32,000 nucleotides of DNA from Thermosulfurimonas dismutans (GTDB taxonomy: Bacteria > Desulfobacterota > Thermodesulfobacteria > Thermodesulfobacteriales > Thermodesulfobacteriaceae): assembly GCF_001652585.1 (NCBI RefSeq), contig NZ_LWLG01000001.1:120001-152000 (forward strand). The letters run 5' to 3'. This document shows, piece by piece, positions 11,483 through 30,239 of the stretch. The notes under the pieces were generated by a model that saw only the letters and a program-made list of their open reading frames with translations, was not told the origin of the DNA and did no database searches. A program made the translations under genes and the position numbers. Each line of letters opens with the position of its first letter. The first letter of the stretch is position 1.

Positions 11483-12844
11483 ATGAAAAAATGGAAACAG
11501 ATACTTCGCATCCTCTTCATCCTAGATCTAGAAGATGGCCGTCTAAATCTCTTTGAATCCTTCCCGTTCATCAAACGTTTCTTTTACAACCGTAAATATT
11601 TCGCATGGATTCGGACTTTTGGAGACTTGGTTTTCGTAATTCTTATCCTTCTGGGGCTTTTGGGGCCTCAAGATCCCCAGCGAAATGTAATGCTTTTCCT
11701 GGCCTGGGGTATCTGGTGGACCAGCGTGGTCCTTTCCTGGTTTTTCGTAGGCCGAATGTGGTGTGCCTTTTGTCCCTTTCCAGGACTCGGAAGGCTACTT
11801 CAAAACCTGGGACTCTCCCGTTTCAAAAACCCTCCCAAATGGCTGACCTGCAAAGGCCTACATTTGGCCACGGCTCTCTTCTTTCTCATCATATGGGCCG
11901 AAACTGTTACCGACATGAAACACTCTCCTTTCTTGACGGCTCTTTTGCTGCTTTCCATCGTTCTGGGAGCTACGCTTATGGGAGTCCTGTACCGAGGCTA
12001 CACTTGGTGCCGCTATCTGTGCCCTTTTGGAAAAATCACCGGTTCCGCAGCCACTATGGCTCTTACCGAGTTTCGGTCCGACTACGAAAAATGCAAGGAT
12101 TGTAAGACCTTCTCTTGCCGACGGGGCAGGGATAAGATCCGTCCCTGTCCAGTTTTTTTAGGGGCTTACCACGCTAAAAACAATCTAGTCTGCCTGGTTT
12201 GCGGACACTGCCTTATCCTGTGCGAGAGAGATTCACCGGCTCTTTATCTTCGTCATCCTCTGCGGGAACAGATCATCAACAAGGGACGCTACATTACCTG
12301 CGGCTATGTTATTCCCCTCCTTATGGGCTCTCAGTTGGCCCGTTTCATTTATGAAACCCCTTACTTCACCTGGTTCGAAAATCTTCTCGGTTTCGGTAAG
12401 GCCGTCACCTTCACTTTCCTGTTCGCTGTAGGGACCTTGTTCTTCATAGAACTTATTAAAGGAGGTTCCATTCTTTTTACTTACTATGAGGACGAGCTTT
12501 TTGGACGCTTTTCGCCTATGGTTCCGGTAGTTATGCCTTTGGCTTTCACCGGAGAGCTCGTCTATCGCCTTCGATATTTTCTCGAGGAATTGGGCAACTT
12601 TTTACCTACCCTTGGAAGACAATTCCATATTTCCTTCTTGATTTCCTATCAATTCGAAGTCCCTCCTTTTTGGATAAAAACAATTTCCTATTTTCTAATC
12701 TTTTTGGGCCTTACCGGCGGATTCTATGTAGCTTGGTATTTTTACAAAAAAGAATTTGAAGGCTTAGTGCCTTTTAAAAATTACCTTTTTATCAATCTTC
12801 TACTCGTTTTTTGCGGAGGCCTCTACCTTTTCTTCCAGCCTTAA
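11483..12844 (+). CDS. polytopic membrane protein with NapH/polyferredoxin-like Fe-S binding motifs
   Basis: WCAFCPFPG and WCRYLCPFG are membrane-edge CxxCP motifs. They are followed by CKDCKTFSCRRG...CP and CLVCGHCLILC ferredoxin-like clusters and then extra C-terminal TM helices. No SD is present. A perfect TATAAT at 11470-11475 ends 7 nt before the ATG, so the mRNA may be leaderless. Confidence 0.7.
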   Translation: MKKWKQILRILFILDLEDGRLNLFESFPFIKRFFYNRKYFAWIRTFGDLVFVILILLGLLGPQDPQRNVMLFLAWGIWWTSVVLSWFFVGRMWCAFCPFPGLGRLLQNLGLSRFKNPPKWLTCKGLHLATALFFLIIWAETVTDMKHSPFLTALLLLSIVLGATLMGVLYRGYTWCRYLCPFGKITGSAATMALTEFRSDYEKCKDCKTFSCRRGRDKIRPCPVFLGAYHAKNNLVCLVCGHCLILCERDSPALYLRHPLREQIINKGRYITCGYVIPLLMGSQLARFIYETPYFTWFENLLGFGKAVTFTFLFAVGTLFFIELIKGGSILFTYYEDELFGRFSPMVPVVMPLAFTGELVYRLRYFLEELGNFLPTLGRQFHISFLISYQFEVPPFWIKTISYFLIFLGLTGGFYVAWYFYKKEFEGLVPFKNYLFINLLLVFCGGLYLFFQP

Positions 12845-12889
12845 AAAACAACCTCTATGAAACCCCTTCATTTTATAAATAAAATCAAT

Positions 12890-12917
12890 TTGACCATAGA
12901 TTCTGTCTATTTATAAT
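12890..12917 (+). promoter_or_regulatory. sigma-70-like promoter TTGACC-N16-TATAAT for the exported DsrE-like gene
   Basis: TTGACC at 12890-12895 and TATAAT at 12912-12917. AGGAGG and the ATG at 12952 lie downstream. Confidence 0.5.
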
Positions 12918-12951
12918 GGCCCCTAAAAAACCTAAAAAAGGAGGTGCTAGG

Positions 12952-13350
12952 ATGAAAAGGTGGGTAGGGTTGTTGTTAGGTTTGTTTTTGTTGGTAGCTT
13001 TCCCTTTCACCAATGCCAAGGCCGAGGGCTCACATTGGGTTATAGTTATCTCTACCAAGGAGAAAGAGACGGCCTGGAACGCTCTCAGGGTAGCCGACTT
13101 CGCTTTGAAGCAAGGGGCCAAGGTCTCTGTTTTCTTATTGGGTGAGGGAGTTAAGGCCTCGGTAATAGAAGATGAGACCTTCAATGTAAAGAAGGCCCTT
13201 GAACATTTTGTTAAAGAAGGAGGTAAGGTTTATGCTTGCAGAGCGTGCCTGAAGATTCACCATTTAAAACCTACTGAAACCTGCCCGGTTGGAACACGAA
13301 AGATCCTTTATGATCTAATCTCGCAGGCAGACCGCATTTTAACCTTTTAA
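12952..13350 (+). CDS. exported DsrE/TusD (YchN-fold)-like protein, Cys form (paralog 1)
   Basis: MKRWVGLLLGLFLLVAFPFTNAKA is signal-peptide-like. The mature part aligns with the ORFs at 29404 and 29755, with the motif GGKVYACRACLK. The ATG at 12952 has AGGAGG upstream, and the track start at 12916 sits inside the -10 box. Confidence 0.8.
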   Translation: MKRWVGLLLGLFLLVAFPFTNAKAEGSHWVIVISTKEKETAWNALRVADFALKQGAKVSVFLLGEGVKASVIEDETFNVKKALEHFVKEGGKVYACRACLKIHHLKPTETCPVGTRKILYDLISQADRILTF

Positions 13351-20915: not shown

Positions 20916-21212
20916 TTGGCCGAAAGGCTTATCGAATTCAATTTTGCAGGAAACAGCTTTACCTTCCGGGCCAATCTCCCGGAAGATGAAATAGAGGCTA
21001 TTTTGAAGTATTTGGAAGAAAAAAAACAGAGGCTCAACGGCCAAAAGAAACTTTCGCCTTTAAAACAGGCGGTGCTCATGTTATTAGAGGTGGCCTCGGA
21101 TTTAGTAAAACTTGAGAAGGAGCATCGTCTTCTCTCGGAGAAGATAGGGAGAGAAGCTATAAGGCTTAGAGAAACTATAGATCGGGAGCTAGAATGCCTG
21201 GGGTGTGCGTGA
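20916..21212 (+). CDS. zapA: cell division protein ZapA-like
   Basis: LIEFNFAGNSFTFRANLPEDEIEAILKYLEEK is a ZapA-like N-terminus followed by a C-terminal coiled coil. TTG start at 20916. Confidence 0.65.
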   Translation: MAERLIEFNFAGNSFTFRANLPEDEIEAILKYLEEKKQRLNGQKKLSPLKQAVLMLLEVASDLVKLEKEHRLLSEKIGREAIRLRETIDRELECLGCA

Positions 21213-21371
21213 TTGGCCTTGAAGCCCGCCGAGGCAACATTAATCAAAGAGGGGGATTCCTCTCCATCCTGGTGCAAGCTCCGGTGAATCTCACCGGAGA
21301 AGCCGAAGGGATGGACGAATCCCCCACCTTAGGCCAACGGTCCTCGAAGCGGGCCGGCTAACACGGCACCC
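21203..21371 (+). ncRNA. ssrS: 6S RNA candidate
   Basis: An extended closing stem pairs 21203-21234 with 21342-21371. A symmetric central bubble has 16 nt on each strand (21235-21250 and 21326-21341). The internal helices are GGGGGATTC/GAATCCCCC and CCATCC/GGATGG, and the apical hairpin is CTCCGGTGA-atc-TCACCGGAG. G-U pairs favour the plus strand. The position just after zapA matches the zapA-ssrS synteny known in other bacteria. Confidence 0.65.
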
Positions 21372-21437
21372 CGGGTTCCTTTTCCTTTTAATTCCCTCCT
21401 GTTTCCTTCCTGCGGAAAAAATAAAGGAGGTTCTAAT

Positions 21438-27693: not shown

Positions 27694-27987
27694 GTGGGAG
27701 GAAAGGGGCCCTTGAATCAGCTAACGCTCTTCTTCAAAACCCTTGGGGACGAAAACCGTCTGAAGATCCTTTACGAGTTGCAAAAGGAAAAAGAACTCTC
27801 CGTAGGTGAACTGGTAGAAAGGCTGGAGATCTCCCAGCCGCTAGCATCCCATCATCTGAGGGAACTAAAGATGTCCGGACTGGTAACAACCAGAAAAAAA
27901 GGACCCTACGTCTTCTATCGCCTTAAAAATCCCCGAATCTTTGAACTGATAGCCCTAGCCCAATCCATACTGGAGGAGCAAGCATGA
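27694..27987 (+). CDS. ArsR/SmtB-family HTH regulator lacking any Cys
   Basis: FKTLGDENRLKILYEL...SVGELVERLEISQPLASHHLRELKMSGLV. The start is ambiguous: GTG at 27694, or TTG at 27712, which has GGAGG 10 nt upstream. Confidence 0.85.
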   Translation: MGGKGPLNQLTLFFKTLGDENRLKILYELQKEKELSVGELVERLEISQPLASHHLRELKMSGLVTTRKKGPYVFYRLKNPRIFELIALAQSILEEQA

Positions 27988-28427
27988 AATCGAGACTCAA
28001 GCATCTCCTCAAGGAGGCCTCCCTGGAGGAAATGAAAGAAGCCCTATTTTTCCTTCTTTCTCAAATTTACGCCCTCCTCGACGAAAAGGAACAGCAAACC
28101 TTCTTCCTGGAAATGTTTAAAGGCGAGGAGGGTAAGGTCCCTTCCATGGTATATTACTGACTGGCCAAGTGTTTCGACGCGGGCGTGGACCCGCGTTCAG
28201 TTTGTCGGGGCATAGTTTCAGCGGTAGGCGAAAAGGAAAGTCTTCCGGAAGAAGTCCCTGAATCCCTGAAACTCCTTTTCGAGGAATGGTTAGACGAACT
28301 TACCGAGGAGGCTCGTCGAATTACTGCTCAAAGAGCCCCTCTGTCCACCCCAGAGCTAGCGAAATACTTACGTATCTCTAAAGAAGGTGCGGAATACATT
28401 AGAGAACGCCTTAAAAGAATCTCTTGA
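27984..28427 (+). CDS. candidate selenoprotein: 147-codon read-through ORF (in-frame TGA = Sec59, motif YY-U-LAKC) with an HTH-like C-terminus
   Basis: The ATG at 27984 (GGAGGA 6 nt upstream, ATGA overlap with the arsR stop) opens a 58-codon frame ending at TGA 28158-28160. The same frame stays open for 88 more codons, which the track shows only as a GTG-started ORF at 28185. Those codons contain no ATG, and the 28185 GTG has no SD upstream. A hairpin follows the TGA. Confidence 0.62.
28176..28197 (+). promoter_or_regulatory. SECIS-like hairpin 15-16 nt after TGA 28158
   Basis: (G)ACGCGGG-CGTGGA-CCCGCGT(T). This gives 7 Watson-Crick pairs plus a closing G-U, and the loop contains GU/GG. Confidence 0.55.
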
Positions 28428-28575: not shown

Positions 28576-28648
28576 TAGATAAAAATACATTGATACATTA
28601 AAATGAGAAAGACCTTCTTAAACAAAACCGGTTGATGTCACCCAAAAG

Positions 28649-28666
28649 GTTCCCCAGTAGGGGAGC
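28649..28666 (+). promoter_or_regulatory. hairpin GTTCCCC-AGTA-GGGGAGC, 13 nt after in-frame TGA 28633 (possible third SECIS)
   Basis: 7-bp stem including one G-U, with loop AGUA. It sits between an ATG at 28603 and the GTG at 28687, which are in the same frame. Confidence 0.35.
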
Positions 28667-28686
28667 AAGCTTCCGAAAGAAAAAAG

Positions 28687-29382
28687 GTGCACTGTTCGAT
28701 TTGCGGTCAGCCTTTGATTTATCTTACCAAAGAAAGAAAAGAAAAATGCTTCTATTGCAAACAAGAAAAATCAGCCTATGTCGTATGCCCTGAAAACCAT
28801 TTTGTCTGCGACGACTGTCACGGGAACGAAATAAAAGCGGCCTTAAAACAAGAAGCATTCAAGGCTCAGACCCCCGACCCGATAAAACTATCTCTTCTTT
28901 GGCTTAAAAAGTACCCCTTCCCCATGCTAGGGTGTGAACATGCCTATTTAGCGGCGAGCTCATTATTAGGATCTCTGGTAGCTGCCGGTTTTAGCCTTTC
29001 GAAAGGAGACCTGGAAGAGGTGTTCTCCCGAATAGACCTCCAGGCTAGAGGTGGCTTTTGCGGGCTTACTGGCATTTGCGGCATAGTGCCAGCCCTAGGA
29101 GCCTCTCTCGCCATCCTTAACAGTTCACACTGCGGAACTGACCGAGAACAACGCGAAGTTATGGAACTTACAAGTGACCTCCTTAAGAAATTTGCGGAGT
29201 TAACCGGTCCTAGCTGTTGTAAAGCCTATCTTTGGGCAGGCTTGGAGGTTGTCACCAAAAGAATCAAGGCTTTTTATCCTCAGGTTAACCTCAGAACTTC
29301 CTCTCCCCTTTGCTTCTTCTCAAAGACGCATCCTCACGGTTGCAGACAAGAAAAGTGTCCATACTTTAACACGTTTAAATAA
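28687..29382 (+). CDS. Cys-rich protein with N-terminal zinc-ribbon (CxxC...CxxC...CPxxHxxCxxCH); resembles DUF5714 from memory
   Basis: MHCSICGQPL...CFYCKQE...CPENHFVCDDCHG, then GGFCGLTGICG, GPSCCKAY and a C-terminal HGCRQEKCPYF. The GTG start has a poor SD. A possible N-terminal extension reaches ATG 28603 through TGA 28633. Confidence 0.7.
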   Translation: MHCSICGQPLIYLTKERKEKCFYCKQEKSAYVVCPENHFVCDDCHGNEIKAALKQEAFKAQTPDPIKLSLLWLKKYPFPMLGCEHAYLAASSLLGSLVAAGFSLSKGDLEEVFSRIDLQARGGFCGLTGICGIVPALGASLAILNSSHCGTDREQREVMELTSDLLKKFAELTGPSCCKAYLWAGLEVVTKRIKAFYPQVNLRTSSPLCFFSKTHPHGCRQEKCPYFNTFK

Positions 29383-29403: not shown

Positions 29404-29724
29404 ATGAAACTAGGAATCATTCTTACAACCAAAGAACCCGAAAAGGCCTGGAATGCCATGCGACTGGCAAACTTTGCCCTCAAAGCTGGGGACGAGGTCA
29501 AGGTCTTTTTAACAGGAGAGGGCGTAGAAGCCTCGGAAGTGGCTGATGATAAGTTCAACATCAAACAAGAGATGAACAAGTTTCTAGAAGGGGGAGGCCA
29601 GATTCTGGCCTGTGGCACCTGTCTAAAATTACGCCACAAAGAGGCCTCGGAGATCTGCCCCCTTTCCACCTTGGAGGATCTTTATAGGTTAATTCTTCTC
29701 TCGGAAAAAGTTTTGACCTTTTAG
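29404..29724 (+). CDS. cytoplasmic DsrE/TusD (YchN-fold)-like protein, Cys form (paralog 2)
   Basis: MKLGIILTTKEPEKAWNAMRLANFALKAGDEVKVFLTGEGV...GGQILACGTCLKLRH. AAGGAGG lies 6 nt upstream and there is no signal peptide. Confidence 0.85.
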   Translation: MKLGIILTTKEPEKAWNAMRLANFALKAGDEVKVFLTGEGVEASEVADDKFNIKQEMNKFLEGGGQILACGTCLKLRHKEASEICPLSTLEDLYRLILLSEKVLTF

Positions 29725-29754
29725 ACCTAAATCTTACATAAGGAGGTGGAGACC

Positions 29755-30156
29755 ATGCGTGTTCCCAAATGGATCTTAGGATTCTGGTTGGTAGGCTGTC
29801 TCCTTTTATGGACTGGGGATCTTAAGGCCGACGAAGGTCGAAAGCTCCTCCTAGTGATCACCACCAACGAAACGGAAACGGTCTGGCAGGCTCTAAGACT
29901 ATCTAATTTTGCAATCTCTCAAGGTGACGAAGTGCGCATCTACCTTACCGGGAAAGGGGTTGAGCTCCTCAAAATGGACAATAGCCCTTTAGATGTAGCC
30001 CAAAAACTTGAAAGTTTTTTGAAAAATGGAGGCGAAGTCTATGGTTGAAAAAAGGCCCTTAAGATGCACGGTGTGCATTCCGAGAAAGTAAAACCTGCGG
30101 GCAAGAAGGCGTTTTACCAGATGATCTGGGAAAGTGAGAAAGTCCTGGTCTATTAA
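29755..30156 (+). CDS. exported DsrE/TusD-fold selenoprotein candidate (paralog 3; TGA 30046-30048 = Sec98 replacing the active-site Cys)
   Basis: The track ORF stops at TGA 30046. The same frame continues KKALKMHGVHSEKVKPAGKKAFYQMIWESEKVLVY to TAA 30154-30156. Gapless alignment to paralog 2 places the TGA on the first Cys of ACGTC. The post-TGA residues L, K, P and SEKVL are conserved with the paralogs. A hairpin follows the TGA. The ATG at 29755 has AAGGAGG upstream, and MRVPKWILGFWLVGCLLLWTGDLKA is signal-peptide-like. Confidence 0.82.
30064..30078 (+). promoter_or_regulatory. SECIS-like hairpin ATGCAC-GGT-GTGCAT, 15 nt after TGA 30046
   Basis: Perfect 6-bp stem with apical GGU. A possible lower stem CTT/GAG lies beyond an internal loop (30058-30084). 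Confidence 0.6.
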
Positions 30157-30164
30157 AATCATAA

Positions 30165-30239
30165 TGGCTGGGGGACCAGGATTCGAACCTGGACTGGCGG
30201 GTCCAGAGCCCGCTGTCCTGCCGATTAGACGATCCCCCA
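30165..30239 (-). tRNA. tRNA-Gln (anticodon CUG), encoded CCA
   Basis: The reverse complement is TGGGGGATCGTCTAATCGGCAGGACAGCGGGCTCTGGACCCGCCAGTCCAGGTTCGAATCCTGGTCCCCCAGCCA. Anticodon loop is CTCTGGA. Confidence 0.88.

What the first reader, a model, noticed from the sequence alone, without database searches (positions are those of the whole stretch)
29755..30156. Exported DsrE/TusD-fold protein with TGA exactly at the active-site cysteine position (Sec/Cys pair with two paralogs in the same window)
Gapless alignment of the mature regions gives three forms. Paralog 2 reads ...FLEGGGQILACGTCLKLRH...SEKVLTF. Paralog 1 reads ...FVKEGGKVYACRACLKIHH...ADRILTF. This ORF reads ...FLKNGGEVYG[TGA]KKALKMHG...SEKVLVY. 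The TGA falls on the first Cys of the A-C-x-x-C motif. From memory of E. coli TusD (..LNICVAAALRRG..), this column corresponds to the persulfide-carrying Cys78 of TusD/DsrE. Homology continues for 35 codons after the TGA to a TAA at 30154. That TAA lies 9 nt before the convergent tRNA-Gln, so the extension fills what would otherwise be an unexplained gap. The hairpin ATGCAC-GGT-GTGCAT sits 15 nt after the TGA. The other two Cys of the paralogs are lost in this copy (A and K), as expected if a single Sec does the chemistry. The protein has a signal peptide, so it would be an exported selenoprotein. To my recollection, DsrE-like proteins appear in published computational selenoproteome lists, so the family-level idea may not be new. 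I could not verify that here.
Basis: seen in the sequence. Interest (0 to 1): 0.85.

Follow-up and report, generated by a model that had tools for sequence, protein, structure and literature searches.

The report
Unannotated exported DsrE-like selenoprotein gene
A gene of the sulfur-disproportionating vent bacterium Thermosulfurimonas dismutans, annotated as a 97-residue hypothetical protein, almost certainly reads through its TGA as selenocysteine to make a 133-residue exported DsrE-type sulfur-carrier protein, a new variant of a selenoprotein family known since 2005.

Summary
ORF 29755-30156 (+) has an in-frame TGA at 30046-30048, followed by 35 more codons to TAA.

The read-through product matches Pfam DsrE across the TGA. 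The TGA column is the invariant first Cys of the paralogs' CxxC, and it corresponds to Cys78 of TusD and DsrE.

Five distinct orthologs (Thermosulfurimonas and Thermodesulfatator isolates and MAGs) all keep TGA at this codon. The downstream codons are under purifying selection (dN/dS 0.03-0.30). All five carry the hairpin UGCAC-GGY-GUGCA. A syntenic Cys (TGT) ortholog lacks that hairpin.

Two further conserved in-frame TGAs, each with a hairpin at the same spacing, lie in the same operon. One is in a TsoA-like gene and one is near the N-terminus of a DUF5714/MbdU-like gene.

This is therefore a real but unannotated selenoprotein (WP_068668322.1 is truncated in databases). DsrE-like selenoproteins are already published with a UxxC motif. 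This clade differs: it has a single Sec (UxxA), both other Cys are lost, it has a signal peptide, and it sits in a TsoR/TsoA-like operon.

The proposed function, a periplasmic sulfane-sulfur carrier, is inferred and not shown. The Sec machinery genes of the organism could not be checked directly.

The parts
29740..29748 (+). Shine-Dalgarno AAGGAGGTG, 6 nt before ATG 29755
   Evidence: read directly
29755..30156 (+). Full coding sequence of the DsrE-like selenoprotein: 133 codons plus TAA, with Sec at codon 98. Databases annotate only codons 1-97 (WP_068668322.1 / OAQ21653.1, 'hypothetical protein').
29755..29829 (+). Predicted Sec-type signal peptide, MRVPKWILGFWLVGCLLLWTGDLKA | DEGRK. All five orthologs have a basic n-region, a hydrophobic core and a small residue at -1, with little sequence conservation. 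The 106-aa cytoplasmic paralogs lack it.
   Evidence: Judged by eye; no signal-peptide predictor was available.
30046..30048 (+). In-frame TGA read as selenocysteine. It aligns with the invariant first Cys of CxxC in paralogs and with Cys78 of TusD/DsrE.
30063..30079 (+). SECIS-like hairpin: stem GAUGCAC/GUGCAUU with apical loop GGU (30070-30072). The optional lower stem is CUU 30058-30060 with GAG 30082-30084. The core UGCAC-GGY-GUGCA is invariant in five orthologs.
30049..30153 (+). 35 codons after the TGA (KKALKMHGVHSEKVKPAGKKAFYQMIWESEKVLVY). By homology to the modelled paralog they encode helices alpha4 and alpha5 and the last beta strand of the DsrE fold.
   Evidence: dN/dS 0.03-0.30; Pfam alignment to profile position 115/116; paralog model
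29404..29724 (+). Adjacent cytoplasmic Cys-type DsrE paralog (106 aa; C70xxC73...C85P). It is paired with the Sec gene in all orthologous loci.
   Evidence: AlphaFold model pLDDT 94.4; best PDB fold matches are all DsrE/YchN structures.
28603..29382 (+). DUF5714 / MbdU-like zinc-ribbon protein of the same operon, with a candidate N-terminal Sec (TGA 28633-28635) and a hairpin at 28649-28666. The mechanical ORF starts at GTG 28687.
27984..28427 (+). TsoA-like selenoprotein gene of the same operon, with an in-frame TGA at 28158-28160 (motif YY-U-LAKC) and a hairpin at 28176-28197. Gene callers split it into 58-aa and 80-aa ORFs.
27694..27987 (+). ArsR/SmtB-type regulator, TsoR-like. Its stop overlaps the TsoA-like start.
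30165..30239 (-). Convergent tRNA-Gln(CTG) bounding the 3' end of the gene. It is conserved downstream of the Sec-type orthologs wherever the contig reaches that far.

Best explanation
29755-30156 is one gene for an exported DsrE-fold selenoprotein.

**How the protein is made.** Translation starts at ATG 29755. At UGA 30046, SelB carrying Sec-tRNA(Sec) is recruited by the hairpin 15-33 nt downstream (apical loop GGU) and inserts selenocysteine. Translation then continues for 35 codons to UAA. The 25-residue signal peptide sends the protein through the Sec translocon. The result is a mature periplasmic domain of about 108 residues.

**Where the selenium sits.** Sec occupies the position of the persulfide-carrying Cys78 of TusD/DsrE, at the end of strand beta3 and the N-terminus of the next helix.

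**Proposed chemistry.** Both other cysteines of the CxxC...C paralogs are gone. The motif is U-K-K-A, like C-V-A-A in TusD and DsrE. The protein therefore cannot act as an internal dithiol/disulfide redox protein. I propose it works as a carrier or transferase. The selenolate attacks sulfane sulfur (polysulfide, thiosulfate or tetrathionate) in the periplasm, holds it as an Se-S adduct, and passes it to a partner. This would be part of a conserved ArsR(TsoR-like)-controlled operon that is rich in selenoproteins.

**Status of each step.**
- Shown here: the gene structure, conservation, family membership and active-site column.
- Strongly inferred: Sec insertion (about 0.9).
- Inferred from sequence features: export.
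- Hypothesis: the sulfur-carrier function (about 0.35).
For: **One continuous coding frame.**
- The Pfam DsrE hit spans residues 30-132 across the TGA.
- Five distinct orthologs on eleven contigs all have TGA at the same codon, plus 35 conserved codons.
- dN/dS after the TGA is 0.03-0.30 with near-saturated synonymous change, similar to 0.10-0.19 before it.
- The four codons between the TGA and the next ATG (KKAL) are invariant at protein level, and two of them vary synonymously.

**TGA is normally a stop here.** It is the ordinary stop of 11 of 29 family-supported genes in the window, so any recoding is site-specific.

**The Sec/Cys pair.**
- The TGA falls on an invariant Cys column, equivalent to Cys78 of TusD 2d1p and DsrE 2hy5.
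- P0035 is a 45% identical, full-length, exported Cys homolog.
- P0043/L023 is a syntenic ortholog with TGT and no hairpin.

**The SECIS-like hairpin.**
- It is the minimum-free-energy structure in all five orthologs, with loop GGU or GGC.
- Synonymous third positions are invariant in 5 of 8 codons at +1..+12, against 8 of 50 elsewhere (Fisher p = 0.010).
- Such a hairpin is expected at about 2% of positions.
- A blind six-frame scan found 50 in-frame TGAs with open frames on both sides. Only three passed the hairpin criterion, and all three lie in this operon.

**Sec use by this lineage.**
- The TsoA-like gene has a conserved TGA and hairpin.
- The literature lists T. dismutans TDIS_RS01570 as a Sec-type MccSep (PMC13510729).

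**Fold.** The paralog model has pLDDT 94.4, with Cys70 at the beta3/helix junction. Its top PDB matches are DsrE/YchN structures.

**Function.**
- TusD and DsrE also read CxxA.
- T. dismutans appears to use soluble polysulfide as its real substrate (PMC4911364).
Against: - No selA, selB, selC or selD gene of T. dismutans could be inspected. None lies in the window.
- The hairpin shows no compensatory covariation, because its core is invariant.
- Its stability is unremarkable against shuffled sequence (z = -0.04 to -2.3).
- With nearest-neighbour parameters at 74 C, the T. dismutans and L001 versions are predicted to be unfolded. The other two operon hairpins keep about -4 to -5 kcal/mol. The 74 C figure is my recollection of the organism's growth optimum.
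- No Rfam family matches.
- Nothing here tests the sulfur-carrier function. The ArsR-type regulator and the MbdU-like ('metal-binding') neighbour point as much to metal or metalloid chemistry.
- The signal peptide was judged by eye only.
Confidence: 0.8

Rival explanations
1. It is a real exported selenoprotein, but its job is binding or trafficking a metal, metalloid or selenium species rather than sulfur. It would act within an ArsR/SmtB-regulated detoxification or handling operon.
For: - The operon regulator matches the metalloregulator ArsR/SmtB family (91 bits, above cutoff) and is TsoR-like.
- The neighbour matches 'metal-binding double selenoprotein MbdU' (258 bits) and C_GCAxxG_C_C.
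- The related CxxC+Cys DsrE-like family SaoD and its relatives sit next to metal transporters (bioRxiv 10.1101/2022.07.06.499078).
Against: - This copy has lost two of the three potential ligand cysteines, leaving a single Sec.
- Its motif matches the CxxA of the persulfide carriers TusD and DsrE.
- The regulator has no cysteine at all (translation).
Confidence: 0.2
2. It is a real selenoprotein that acts as a redox enzyme (for example a peroxidase or reductase) using an external thiol or a partner protein as the resolving group.
For: - Published DsrE-like selenoproteins are classed with thiol-oxidoreductase-like UxxC proteins.
- The paralogs carry CxxC.
Against: - The resolving Cys is replaced by Ala in all five orthologs, and the third Cys is also lost.
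- No reductase partner is evident in the operon.
Confidence: 0.12
3. The TGA is decoded by something other than Sec (near-cognate read-through inserting Trp, Cys or Arg). Alternatively, it is a true stop, and the 30-codon ORF from ATG 30064 is translated separately.
For: - Gene callers annotate a 95-98-aa ORF plus a 30-aa ORF in several loci.
- The hairpin is weak at high temperature.
- The Sec machinery was not seen directly.
Against: - The TGA sits exactly on the catalytic Cys column, which is the signature of Sec/Cys pairs.
- The KKAL codons between the TGA and the ATG are conserved as coding sequence.
- Cys orthologs are single full-length ORFs.
- The hairpin is present only in the TGA forms.
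- By the paralog model, a 72-residue mature fragment would lack two helices and the last strand of the fold.
Confidence: 0.05
4. It is a truncated pseudogene copy of a DsrE paralog, or a sequencing error.
For: It is annotated as a 97-aa hypothetical protein with no Pfam domain.
Against: - The same TGA occurs in eleven independent contigs from five species-level lineages.
- Purifying selection acts downstream.
- Operon position is conserved.
Confidence: 0.02

Closest known systems
DsrE-like selenoprotein family (Zhang, Fomenko & Gladyshev 2005, PMC1088965; Desulfovibrio vulgaris member in PMC1794560; listed as PF02635, UxxC, WP_014524487.1 in PMC13188914)
   Same: - PF02635 domain.
- In-frame UGA paired with a Cys in homologs.
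- Stem-loop with a G-containing apical loop just downstream.
- The Sec replaces the first Cys of the family's CxxC.
   Different: - The published motif is UxxC. This clade is U-K-K-A, with both other Cys lost.
- It has a signal peptide.
- It is so far found only in Thermosulfurimonas and Thermodesulfatator.
- It lies in a TsoR/TsoA-like operon.
- I could not retrieve a published member to compare sequences directly.
TusD (E. coli, 2d1p) and DsrE (Allochromatium vinosum DsrEFH, 2hy5) sulfur-relay subunits
   Same: - DsrE fold.
- The Sec column aligns to their persulfide-carrying Cys78.
- The motif shape is the same: CVAA against UKKA, a single chalcogen nucleophile with no resolving Cys.
   Different: - They are cytoplasmic and work as TusBCD / DsrEFH heterohexamers with F/H-type (C/B-type) subunits, which are absent here.
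- Sequence relation is only at family level (E = 0.04-0.24 with the profile; TIGR03012 does not hit the target).
- They use Cys, not Sec.
E. coli YchN (1jx7) and the standalone ~106-aa 'DsrE family protein' CxxC...C subfamily
   Same: - YchN is the best solved-structure relative by sequence profile (E = 3.9e-8).
- It is among the best by fold for the paralog model (TM 0.87, rmsd 2.1 A).
- The two Cys paralogs in the window belong to the standalone subfamily.
   Different: - The function of YchN and of this subfamily is unknown.
- They are Cys proteins, mostly without signal peptides.
Tso 'three selenoprotein operon' neighbourhoods (Haft & Tolstoy 2025, cited in PMC13188914; NCBIfam NF045695 TsoA, NF045707 TsoR)
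   Same: An ArsR-type regulator is followed by a protein with a U-L-A-x-C motif, with further selenoprotein genes adjacent.
   Different: - Both hits are below the equivalog cutoffs (TsoR 87 bits against 115; TsoA 96.8 against 170).
- No TsoB, TsoC, TsoX or TsoY match appeared among the operon proteins.
- No NCBIfam selenoprotein model hits the DsrE-like protein.
- The primary paper was not available to me.
[quoted passage not shown]
   Same: DsrE-like domains with a CxxC/CGxC motif plus another Cys, found in selenium- or selenoprotein-rich neighbourhoods.
   Different: - SaoD is 'never detected as selenoprotein'.
- YedF carries an N-terminal SirA-like domain.
- The TIGR03527 hit to the paralogs is far below cutoff (17-20 bits against 110), and it does not hit the target at all.

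Membership tests
DsrE/DsrF-like family (Pfam PF02635) | Full-domain HMM match above the gathering score | tested here: met
   With U written as C, the read-through product scores 35.8 bits against a cutoff of 22.7. Residues 30-132 match profile positions 2-115 of 116.
DsrE/DsrF-like family (Pfam PF02635) | Alpha/beta DsrE fold | tested here: inconclusive
   The target itself could not be submitted. The adjacent paralog (38% identical) models at pLDDT 94.4, and its best PDB matches are all DsrE/YchN-type structures.
DsrE/DsrF-like family (Pfam PF02635) | Nucleophile at the position of TusD/DsrE Cys78 | tested here: met
   A family profile aligns the TGA/Cys column with C78 of 2d1p (chain residue 90, after a 12-residue tag) and C78 of 2hy5_A. 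The E-values of those two alignments are weak (0.041 and 0.24).
DsrE-like selenoprotein family (published) | In-frame UGA aligned with Cys in homologs, conserved in other organisms | tested here: met
DsrE-like selenoprotein family (published) | Bacterial SECIS-like stem-loop directly downstream, with a small apical loop containing G | tested here: met
   The hairpin lies at +18..+34 with loop GGU or GGC in 5 of 5 orthologs. Background frequency is about 2%. Synonymous sites are constrained. No covariation is seen, and stability at 74 C is weak.
DsrE-like selenoprotein family (published) | UxxC redox motif | tested here: not met
   The motif is U-K-K-A in all five orthologs.
DsrE-like selenoprotein family (published) | Host genome encodes SelA, SelB, SelC and SelD | not testable with these tools
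Indirect support comes from two more conserved TGA genes in the operon and the published Sec-type MccSep TDIS_RS01570.
TusBCD / DsrEFH sulfur relay | Adjacent genes for the partner subunits (TusC/DsrF and TusB/DsrH), and a cytoplasmic location | tested here: not met
   The neighbours are a second DsrE-like Cys paralog, a DUF5714 protein, a TsoA-like protein and an ArsR regulator. The target has a signal peptide. TIGR03012 does not hit it.
Tso three-selenoprotein operon | TsoR and TsoA equivalog-level matches, with TsoB and TsoC present | tested here: not met
   TsoR scores 87 against a cutoff of 115, and TsoA scores 96.8 against 170. No operon protein hits TsoB or TsoC.
YedF selenium-metabolism protein (TIGR03527) | SirA-like N-terminal domain plus a DsrE-like CGxC domain, scoring at least 110 bits | tested here: not met
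   There is no SirA domain. Only the paralogs hit, at 17-20 bits.

The most novel reading that the evidence does not exclude
The ArsR(TsoR-like) / TsoA-like / DUF5714 / DsrE-Cys / DsrE-Sec cluster would be a dedicated operon with three selenoproteins. Together these would form a selenium-based relay across the inner membrane. The exported single-Sec DsrE would capture polysulfide or thiosulfate sulfur in the periplasm as an Se-S adduct. That would feed the still unknown first step of sulfur disproportionation in Thermodesulfobacteria. The Sec-containing, HTH-bearing TsoA-like protein would act as the sensor.
Probability: 0.15. Interest if true: 0.75.

Novelty: new variant of a known kind. Interest (0 to 1): 0.5.

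Why it matters
1. **Annotation.** It corrects the annotation of a gene that public databases truncate in two cultured strains, T. dismutans (WP_068668322.1) and Thermosulfurimonas sp. F29 (WP_221173603.1). Gene calls on the related metagenome contigs and MAGs truncate it too. It also exposes an operon in which up to three genes are split or shortened at UGA codons.

2. **Chemistry.** This is a DsrE-fold protein in which one selenocysteine, with no resolving cysteine, sits at the sulfur-carrier position and faces the periplasm. That makes a selenium-sulfur adduct carrier directly testable.

3. **Physiology.** The host disproportionates sulfur, probably via soluble polysulfide (PMC4911364). The entry step is not understood. 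A periplasmic Sec-dependent polysulfide reductase family (MccSep) has just been described with a T. dismutans member (PMC13510729). A periplasmic Sec-DsrE is a plausible companion.

Tried and rejected
**Searches blocked or limited by the tools.**
I used paralog 2 instead.
- The target alone gave no meaningful PDB sequence match. A 9-sequence profile reached only YchN weakly. The 48-sequence profile was needed to reach TusD and DsrE.
- The genome-collection scan returned only two already-known MAG loci, partly because one search pattern contained the Cys placeholder.
- The metagenome scan, with X at the Sec column, returned only Cys-type 106-aa relatives and no new Sec orthologs.
- The family-profile protein search listed only Cys-type proteins among its best 120. 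It could not retrieve a published UxxC member.
- P0035 could not be located on a contig.

**RNA and machinery checks that led nowhere.**
- Rfam at gathering and at permissive thresholds found no SECIS family hit, only noise.
- RNAalifold found no compensatory pairs. The long-range GCCC/GGGC helix in the 66-nt fold is broken in two orthologs, so I rejected it in favour of the local hairpin.
- I looked for tRNA-Sec in the fetched loci and found none.
- I looked for Sec machinery among the window genes and found only housekeeping genes.

**Literature gaps.**
- Haft & Tolstoy 2025 (PMC12013261) is not held.
- BSepDB has no text supplements.
- The Mardanov 2016 genome paper does not mention selenium or DsrE.

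**Ideas rejected.**
- A lipoprotein reading of 'LVGC' in the T. dismutans signal peptide. The Cys is absent in all orthologs.
- The N-terminal TGA of the DUF5714 gene as one of the MbdU Sec sites. The MbdU model alignment starts only after it.
Full report
**What is in the sequence**

The window is from Thermosulfurimonas dismutans. The first 97 codons of the ORF are 100% identical to OAQ21653.1 / WP_068668322.1, a 'hypothetical protein' of that species.

Translating 29755-30156 (+) gives 97 codons, TGA (30046-30048), 35 more codons, then TAA (30154-30156). A strong Shine-Dalgarno sequence (AAGGAGGTG, 29740-29748) precedes the ATG. A convergent tRNA-Gln(CTG) starts 8 nt after the TAA.

They are 29404-29724 (106 aa, ACGTC...CP) and 12916-13350 (144 aa with an N-terminal hydrophobic extension, ACRAC...CP). 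All three proteins match Pfam DsrE above the gathering score. For the target, the match runs over residues 30-132, across the TGA.

In the multiple alignment the TGA falls on an invariant Cys, the first of CxxC. The other two Cys of the paralogs are Ala101 and Lys113 in this copy. There is one single-residue gap, so the alignment is almost but not entirely gapless.

**Is the TGA decoded?**

The protein database holds four other clusters of 95-98 residues that end at exactly the same place...(E/Q)(V/L)YG. The DNA says otherwise.

- I fetched ten contigs carrying the four other lineages; with the window they represent five distinct lineages: T. dismutans, a close relative of Thermosulfurimonas sp. 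F29, a Thermosulfurimonas MAG, a Thermodesulfatator MAG and an unnamed vent lineage.
- In every one the 'stop' is TGA. It is followed by 35 codons that translate to KKAL(K/R)MHGV(H/Q)S(E/D)KV.PAG(R/K)K.F..(M/L)I.ES(E/D)(K/R)VL(V/I)Y and then a true stop.
- Pairwise Nei-Gojobori estimates for the 35 downstream codons give dN/dS of 0.03-0.30, with synonymous sites close to saturation. The 68 codons upstream give 0.10-0.19.
- The four codons between the TGA and the next ATG (KKAL) are conserved in protein, and two of them vary synonymously. This argues against an independent 30-codon ORF.
- TGA is the ordinary stop of 11 of 29 family-supported genes in the window, and of the Sec gene itself in one ortholog. 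The genetic code is therefore standard, and the recoding is site-specific.

Pseudogene, sequencing error and two-ORF readings are thus effectively excluded.

**Sec/Cys pairing**

- An exhaustive HMMER search with paralog 2 found a modest family: 674 representative clusters at E <= 0.001. Most are 106-aa CxxC...C proteins.
- Among them, P0035 (133 aa) has a signal peptide and reads ACQTAMKMHGI where the target reads G-U-KKALKMHGV. It is 45% identical over the full length.
- P0043 (HFB83913.1, Thermodesulfatator sp.) reads ACGTAMKMHQ with a TGT codon. It lies in front of dCMP deaminase and SHMT genes on the opposite strand, the same genes that lie downstream of the target, with nrdR in between where the target has tRNA-Gln, so it is a syntenic Cys ortholog.
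- A 48-sequence family profile searched against PDB sequences aligns the TGA/Cys column with Cys78 of E. coli TusD (2d1p) and Cys78 of A. vinosum DsrE (2hy5). The best hit is YchN (1jx7, E = 3.9e-8). The TusD and DsrE alignments are weak (E = 0.041 and 0.24) but mutually consistent.
- An AlphaFold model of the adjacent paralog (pLDDT 94.4) places that Cys at the end of strand beta3, at the N-terminus of the following helix. Its best PDB fold matches are all DsrE/DsrF/YchN structures.
- A product ending at the TGA would lack two helices and the last strand of the fold.

**The SECIS candidate**

With an extra G-U pair it spans 30063-30079, and its apical loop is GGU.

- It is the minimum-free-energy structure of the 45-48 nt after the TGA in all five orthologs (-6.6 to -15.9 kcal/mol at 37 C). 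The core UGCAC-GGY-GUGCA is invariant.
- It fits the published description of bacterial SECIS elements: a stem-loop just downstream with a small apical loop containing G (PMC1088965). From my own recollection of the bSECISearch rules, it also fits the expected 16-37 nt spacing from UGA to apical loop.
- There is no compensatory covariation, and the z-scores against shuffles are unimpressive.

Three other lines of evidence support an RNA-level constraint.

1. Among codons whose amino acid is conserved, the synonymous third position is invariant in 5 of 8 within codons +1..+12. Elsewhere in the gene it is 8 of 50 (Fisher p = 0.010).
2. A hairpin meeting loose criteria (at least 6 bp, starting 14-21 nt from the U, G in the first two loop positions) occurs at only 1.8% of random positions and 2.5% of all TGA triplets in the window.
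3. The syntenic TGT ortholog has no such hairpin.

One caveat remains. With nearest-neighbour parameters at 74 C, the T. dismutans and L001 hairpins are predicted to be open. The 74 C figure is my recollection of the organism's growth optimum. SelB binding or a lower insertion efficiency may compensate. This needs experiment.

**The operon context**

Scanning the neighbours against NCBIfam gave results I had not expected.

- *Regulator.* The ArsR-type regulator (27694-27987) is TsoR-like.
- *TsoA-like gene.* The 58-aa and 80-aa ORFs after the regulator are the two halves of a 'LULAXC motif selenoprotein TsoA' homolog. Together, 27984-28427 is one frame with TGA at 28158-28160, reading ...SMVYY-U-LAKCFDAG. 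The joined product matches the TsoA model end to end at 96.8 bits, below the equivalog cutoff of 170. The TGA, the downstream protein and a strong hairpin (ACGCGGG-CGUGGA-CCCGCGU) are conserved in all five lineages.
- *DUF5714 gene.* The DUF5714 protein (28687-29382) resembles the first half of 'metal-binding double selenoprotein MbdU'. In all three lineages that have it, an ATG lies 9-10 codons before an in-frame TGA. That TGA sits exactly 20 codons before the first Cys of the zinc ribbon, and each has a GC-rich hairpin 16-17 nt after it. The hairpins differ in sequence but not in position. In two lineages, gene callers could find a start only by cutting into the zinc ribbon.
- *Specificity.* A blind six-frame scan of the window found 50 in-frame TGAs with open frames on both sides. 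Exactly these three sites passed the hairpin criterion.

The lineage therefore clearly uses UGA recoding in this operon. This is indirect support for Sec machinery. So is the published listing of T. dismutans TDIS_RS01570 as a Sec-type MccSep (PMC13510729). I could not inspect selA, selB, selC or selD themselves.

**How it probably works**

*Shown here:* one gene, DsrE family, the nucleophile column, conservation, and an operon partnership with a cytoplasmic Cys paralog.

*Strongly inferred:* SelB/SECIS-dependent insertion of Sec at codon 98.

*Inferred from sequence:* all five precursors carry a poorly conserved N-terminal extension of 23-26 residues. It has basic residues, a hydrophobic core and a small residue at -1 (...LKA|D...SRA|G...GWA|A). 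The 106-aa relatives lack it. The mature domain should therefore be periplasmic.

*Hypothesis:* the clade has lost both other cysteines and reads U-x-x-A, like the C-V-A-A of the persulfide carriers TusD and DsrE. It should therefore act as a carrier that forms an Se-S adduct with sulfane sulfur, not as a CxxC-type redox protein. The host grows on sulfur enclosed in alginate beads, which implies soluble polysulfide is the real substrate (PMC4911364). A periplasmic polysulfide or thiosulfate carrier would make sense there.

The main rival reading is metal, metalloid or selenium handling. The ArsR/SmtB regulator, the MbdU-like neighbour, and the metal-linked SaoD relatives of CxxC DsrE-like proteins all suggest it.

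**Comparison with what is known**

DsrE-like selenoproteins were reported in 2005 from the Sargasso Sea (two sequences, UxxC, with a predicted SECIS). They were then found in Desulfovibrio vulgaris, and they remain in the 2026 list of prokaryotic selenoprotein families. Sec at this position of a DsrE fold is therefore not new, and neither are exported selenoproteins.

What differs here:

- the single-Sec UxxA architecture;
- the signal peptide;
- restriction to Thermosulfurimonas and Thermodesulfatator, as far as the genome, metagenome and protein searches reached;
- placement in a TsoR/TsoA-like, multi-selenoprotein operon.

No full-length version of the protein exists in the 5.8-billion-protein collection. 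No NCBIfam selenoprotein model recognises it. I could not read Haft & Tolstoy 2025, which defines the Tso neighbourhoods, so some overlap with their 'adjacent selenoprotein genes' cannot be excluded.

**Verdict**

This is a genuine, currently mis-annotated selenoprotein gene. It is a new variant of a known selenoprotein family. Interest is moderate (0.5), raised by the operon context and the testable Se-S carrier idea, and lowered by the age of the family-level discovery.

Noticed in passing
window 27984-28427 (+), TGA at 28158-28160, hairpin 28176-28197: There is a second selenoprotein gene in the same operon. The 58-aa and 80-aa ORFs are one frame joined by TGA (motif YY-U-LAKC). Joined, the product matches NCBIfam 'LULAXC motif selenoprotein TsoA' end to end (96.8 bits, cutoff 170). 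Its C-terminal part resembles sigma-70 region 4 (an HTH). The TGA, the downstream protein and the hairpin are conserved in five lineages.
   Followed up: yes
window 28603-29382 (+), TGA at 28633-28635, hairpin 28649-28666; also L001 TGA 2207 and L008 TGA 3896: There is a candidate third selenoprotein. In three lineages the DUF5714/MbdU-like zinc-ribbon gene has an ATG 9-10 codons before an in-frame TGA. That TGA lies exactly 20 codons before the first zinc-ribbon Cys. Each has a hairpin at +16/17 that differs in sequence. In L001 and L008 the called starts cut into the zinc ribbon. The MbdU model does not cover this N-terminus. A weak promoter-like match (28576-28604) overlaps the proposed ATG.
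   Followed up: partly
window 27694-27987 (+): The ArsR/SmtB regulator is TsoR-like (87 bits, cutoff 115) and also resembles BigR. It contains no cysteine at all. Its stop overlaps the start of the TsoA-like gene (ATGA), which suggests translational coupling.
   Followed up: partly
window 11483-13350 (+): The exported Cys-type DsrE paralog (12916-13350) sits directly after a 453-aa protein with Fer4_5 / weak NapH-like matches (11483-12844). This is a possible membrane polyferredoxin partner for a periplasmic CxxC DsrE-like protein.
   Followed up: no
window 30063-30079, and the same site in L001: The DsrE SECIS-like hairpin is predicted to be unfolded at 74 C in T. dismutans and L001. It is weakly stable in the other three orthologs, where a CGG/CCG extension adds three pairs. 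The other two operon hairpins keep -4 to -5 kcal/mol.
   Followed up: partly
protein P0077: A family member reads L-T-W-G-K-C, with Trp at the Cys/Sec column. It may be a UGA translated as Trp by a gene caller using code 4, which would make it a UxxC Sec form. I did not check it at the DNA level.
   Followed up: no
window 29797-29799 (Cys15 of the precursor): The T. dismutans signal peptide contains a lipobox-like L-V-G-C. None of the four other orthologs has a Cys there, so lipoprotein processing is unlikely.
   Followed up: yes
window 21192-21381 (+): There is a 6S RNA (Rfam RF00013, 77.6 bits) between a 194-aa ORF with no family match and RNase Y. It is unrelated to the finding.
   Followed up: no
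L004 and L005 versus window, L001 and L008: The DUF5714 gene is present in only three of the five orthologous operons. The TsoR-like, TsoA-like, DsrE-Cys and DsrE-Sec genes are present in all five.
   Followed up: partly
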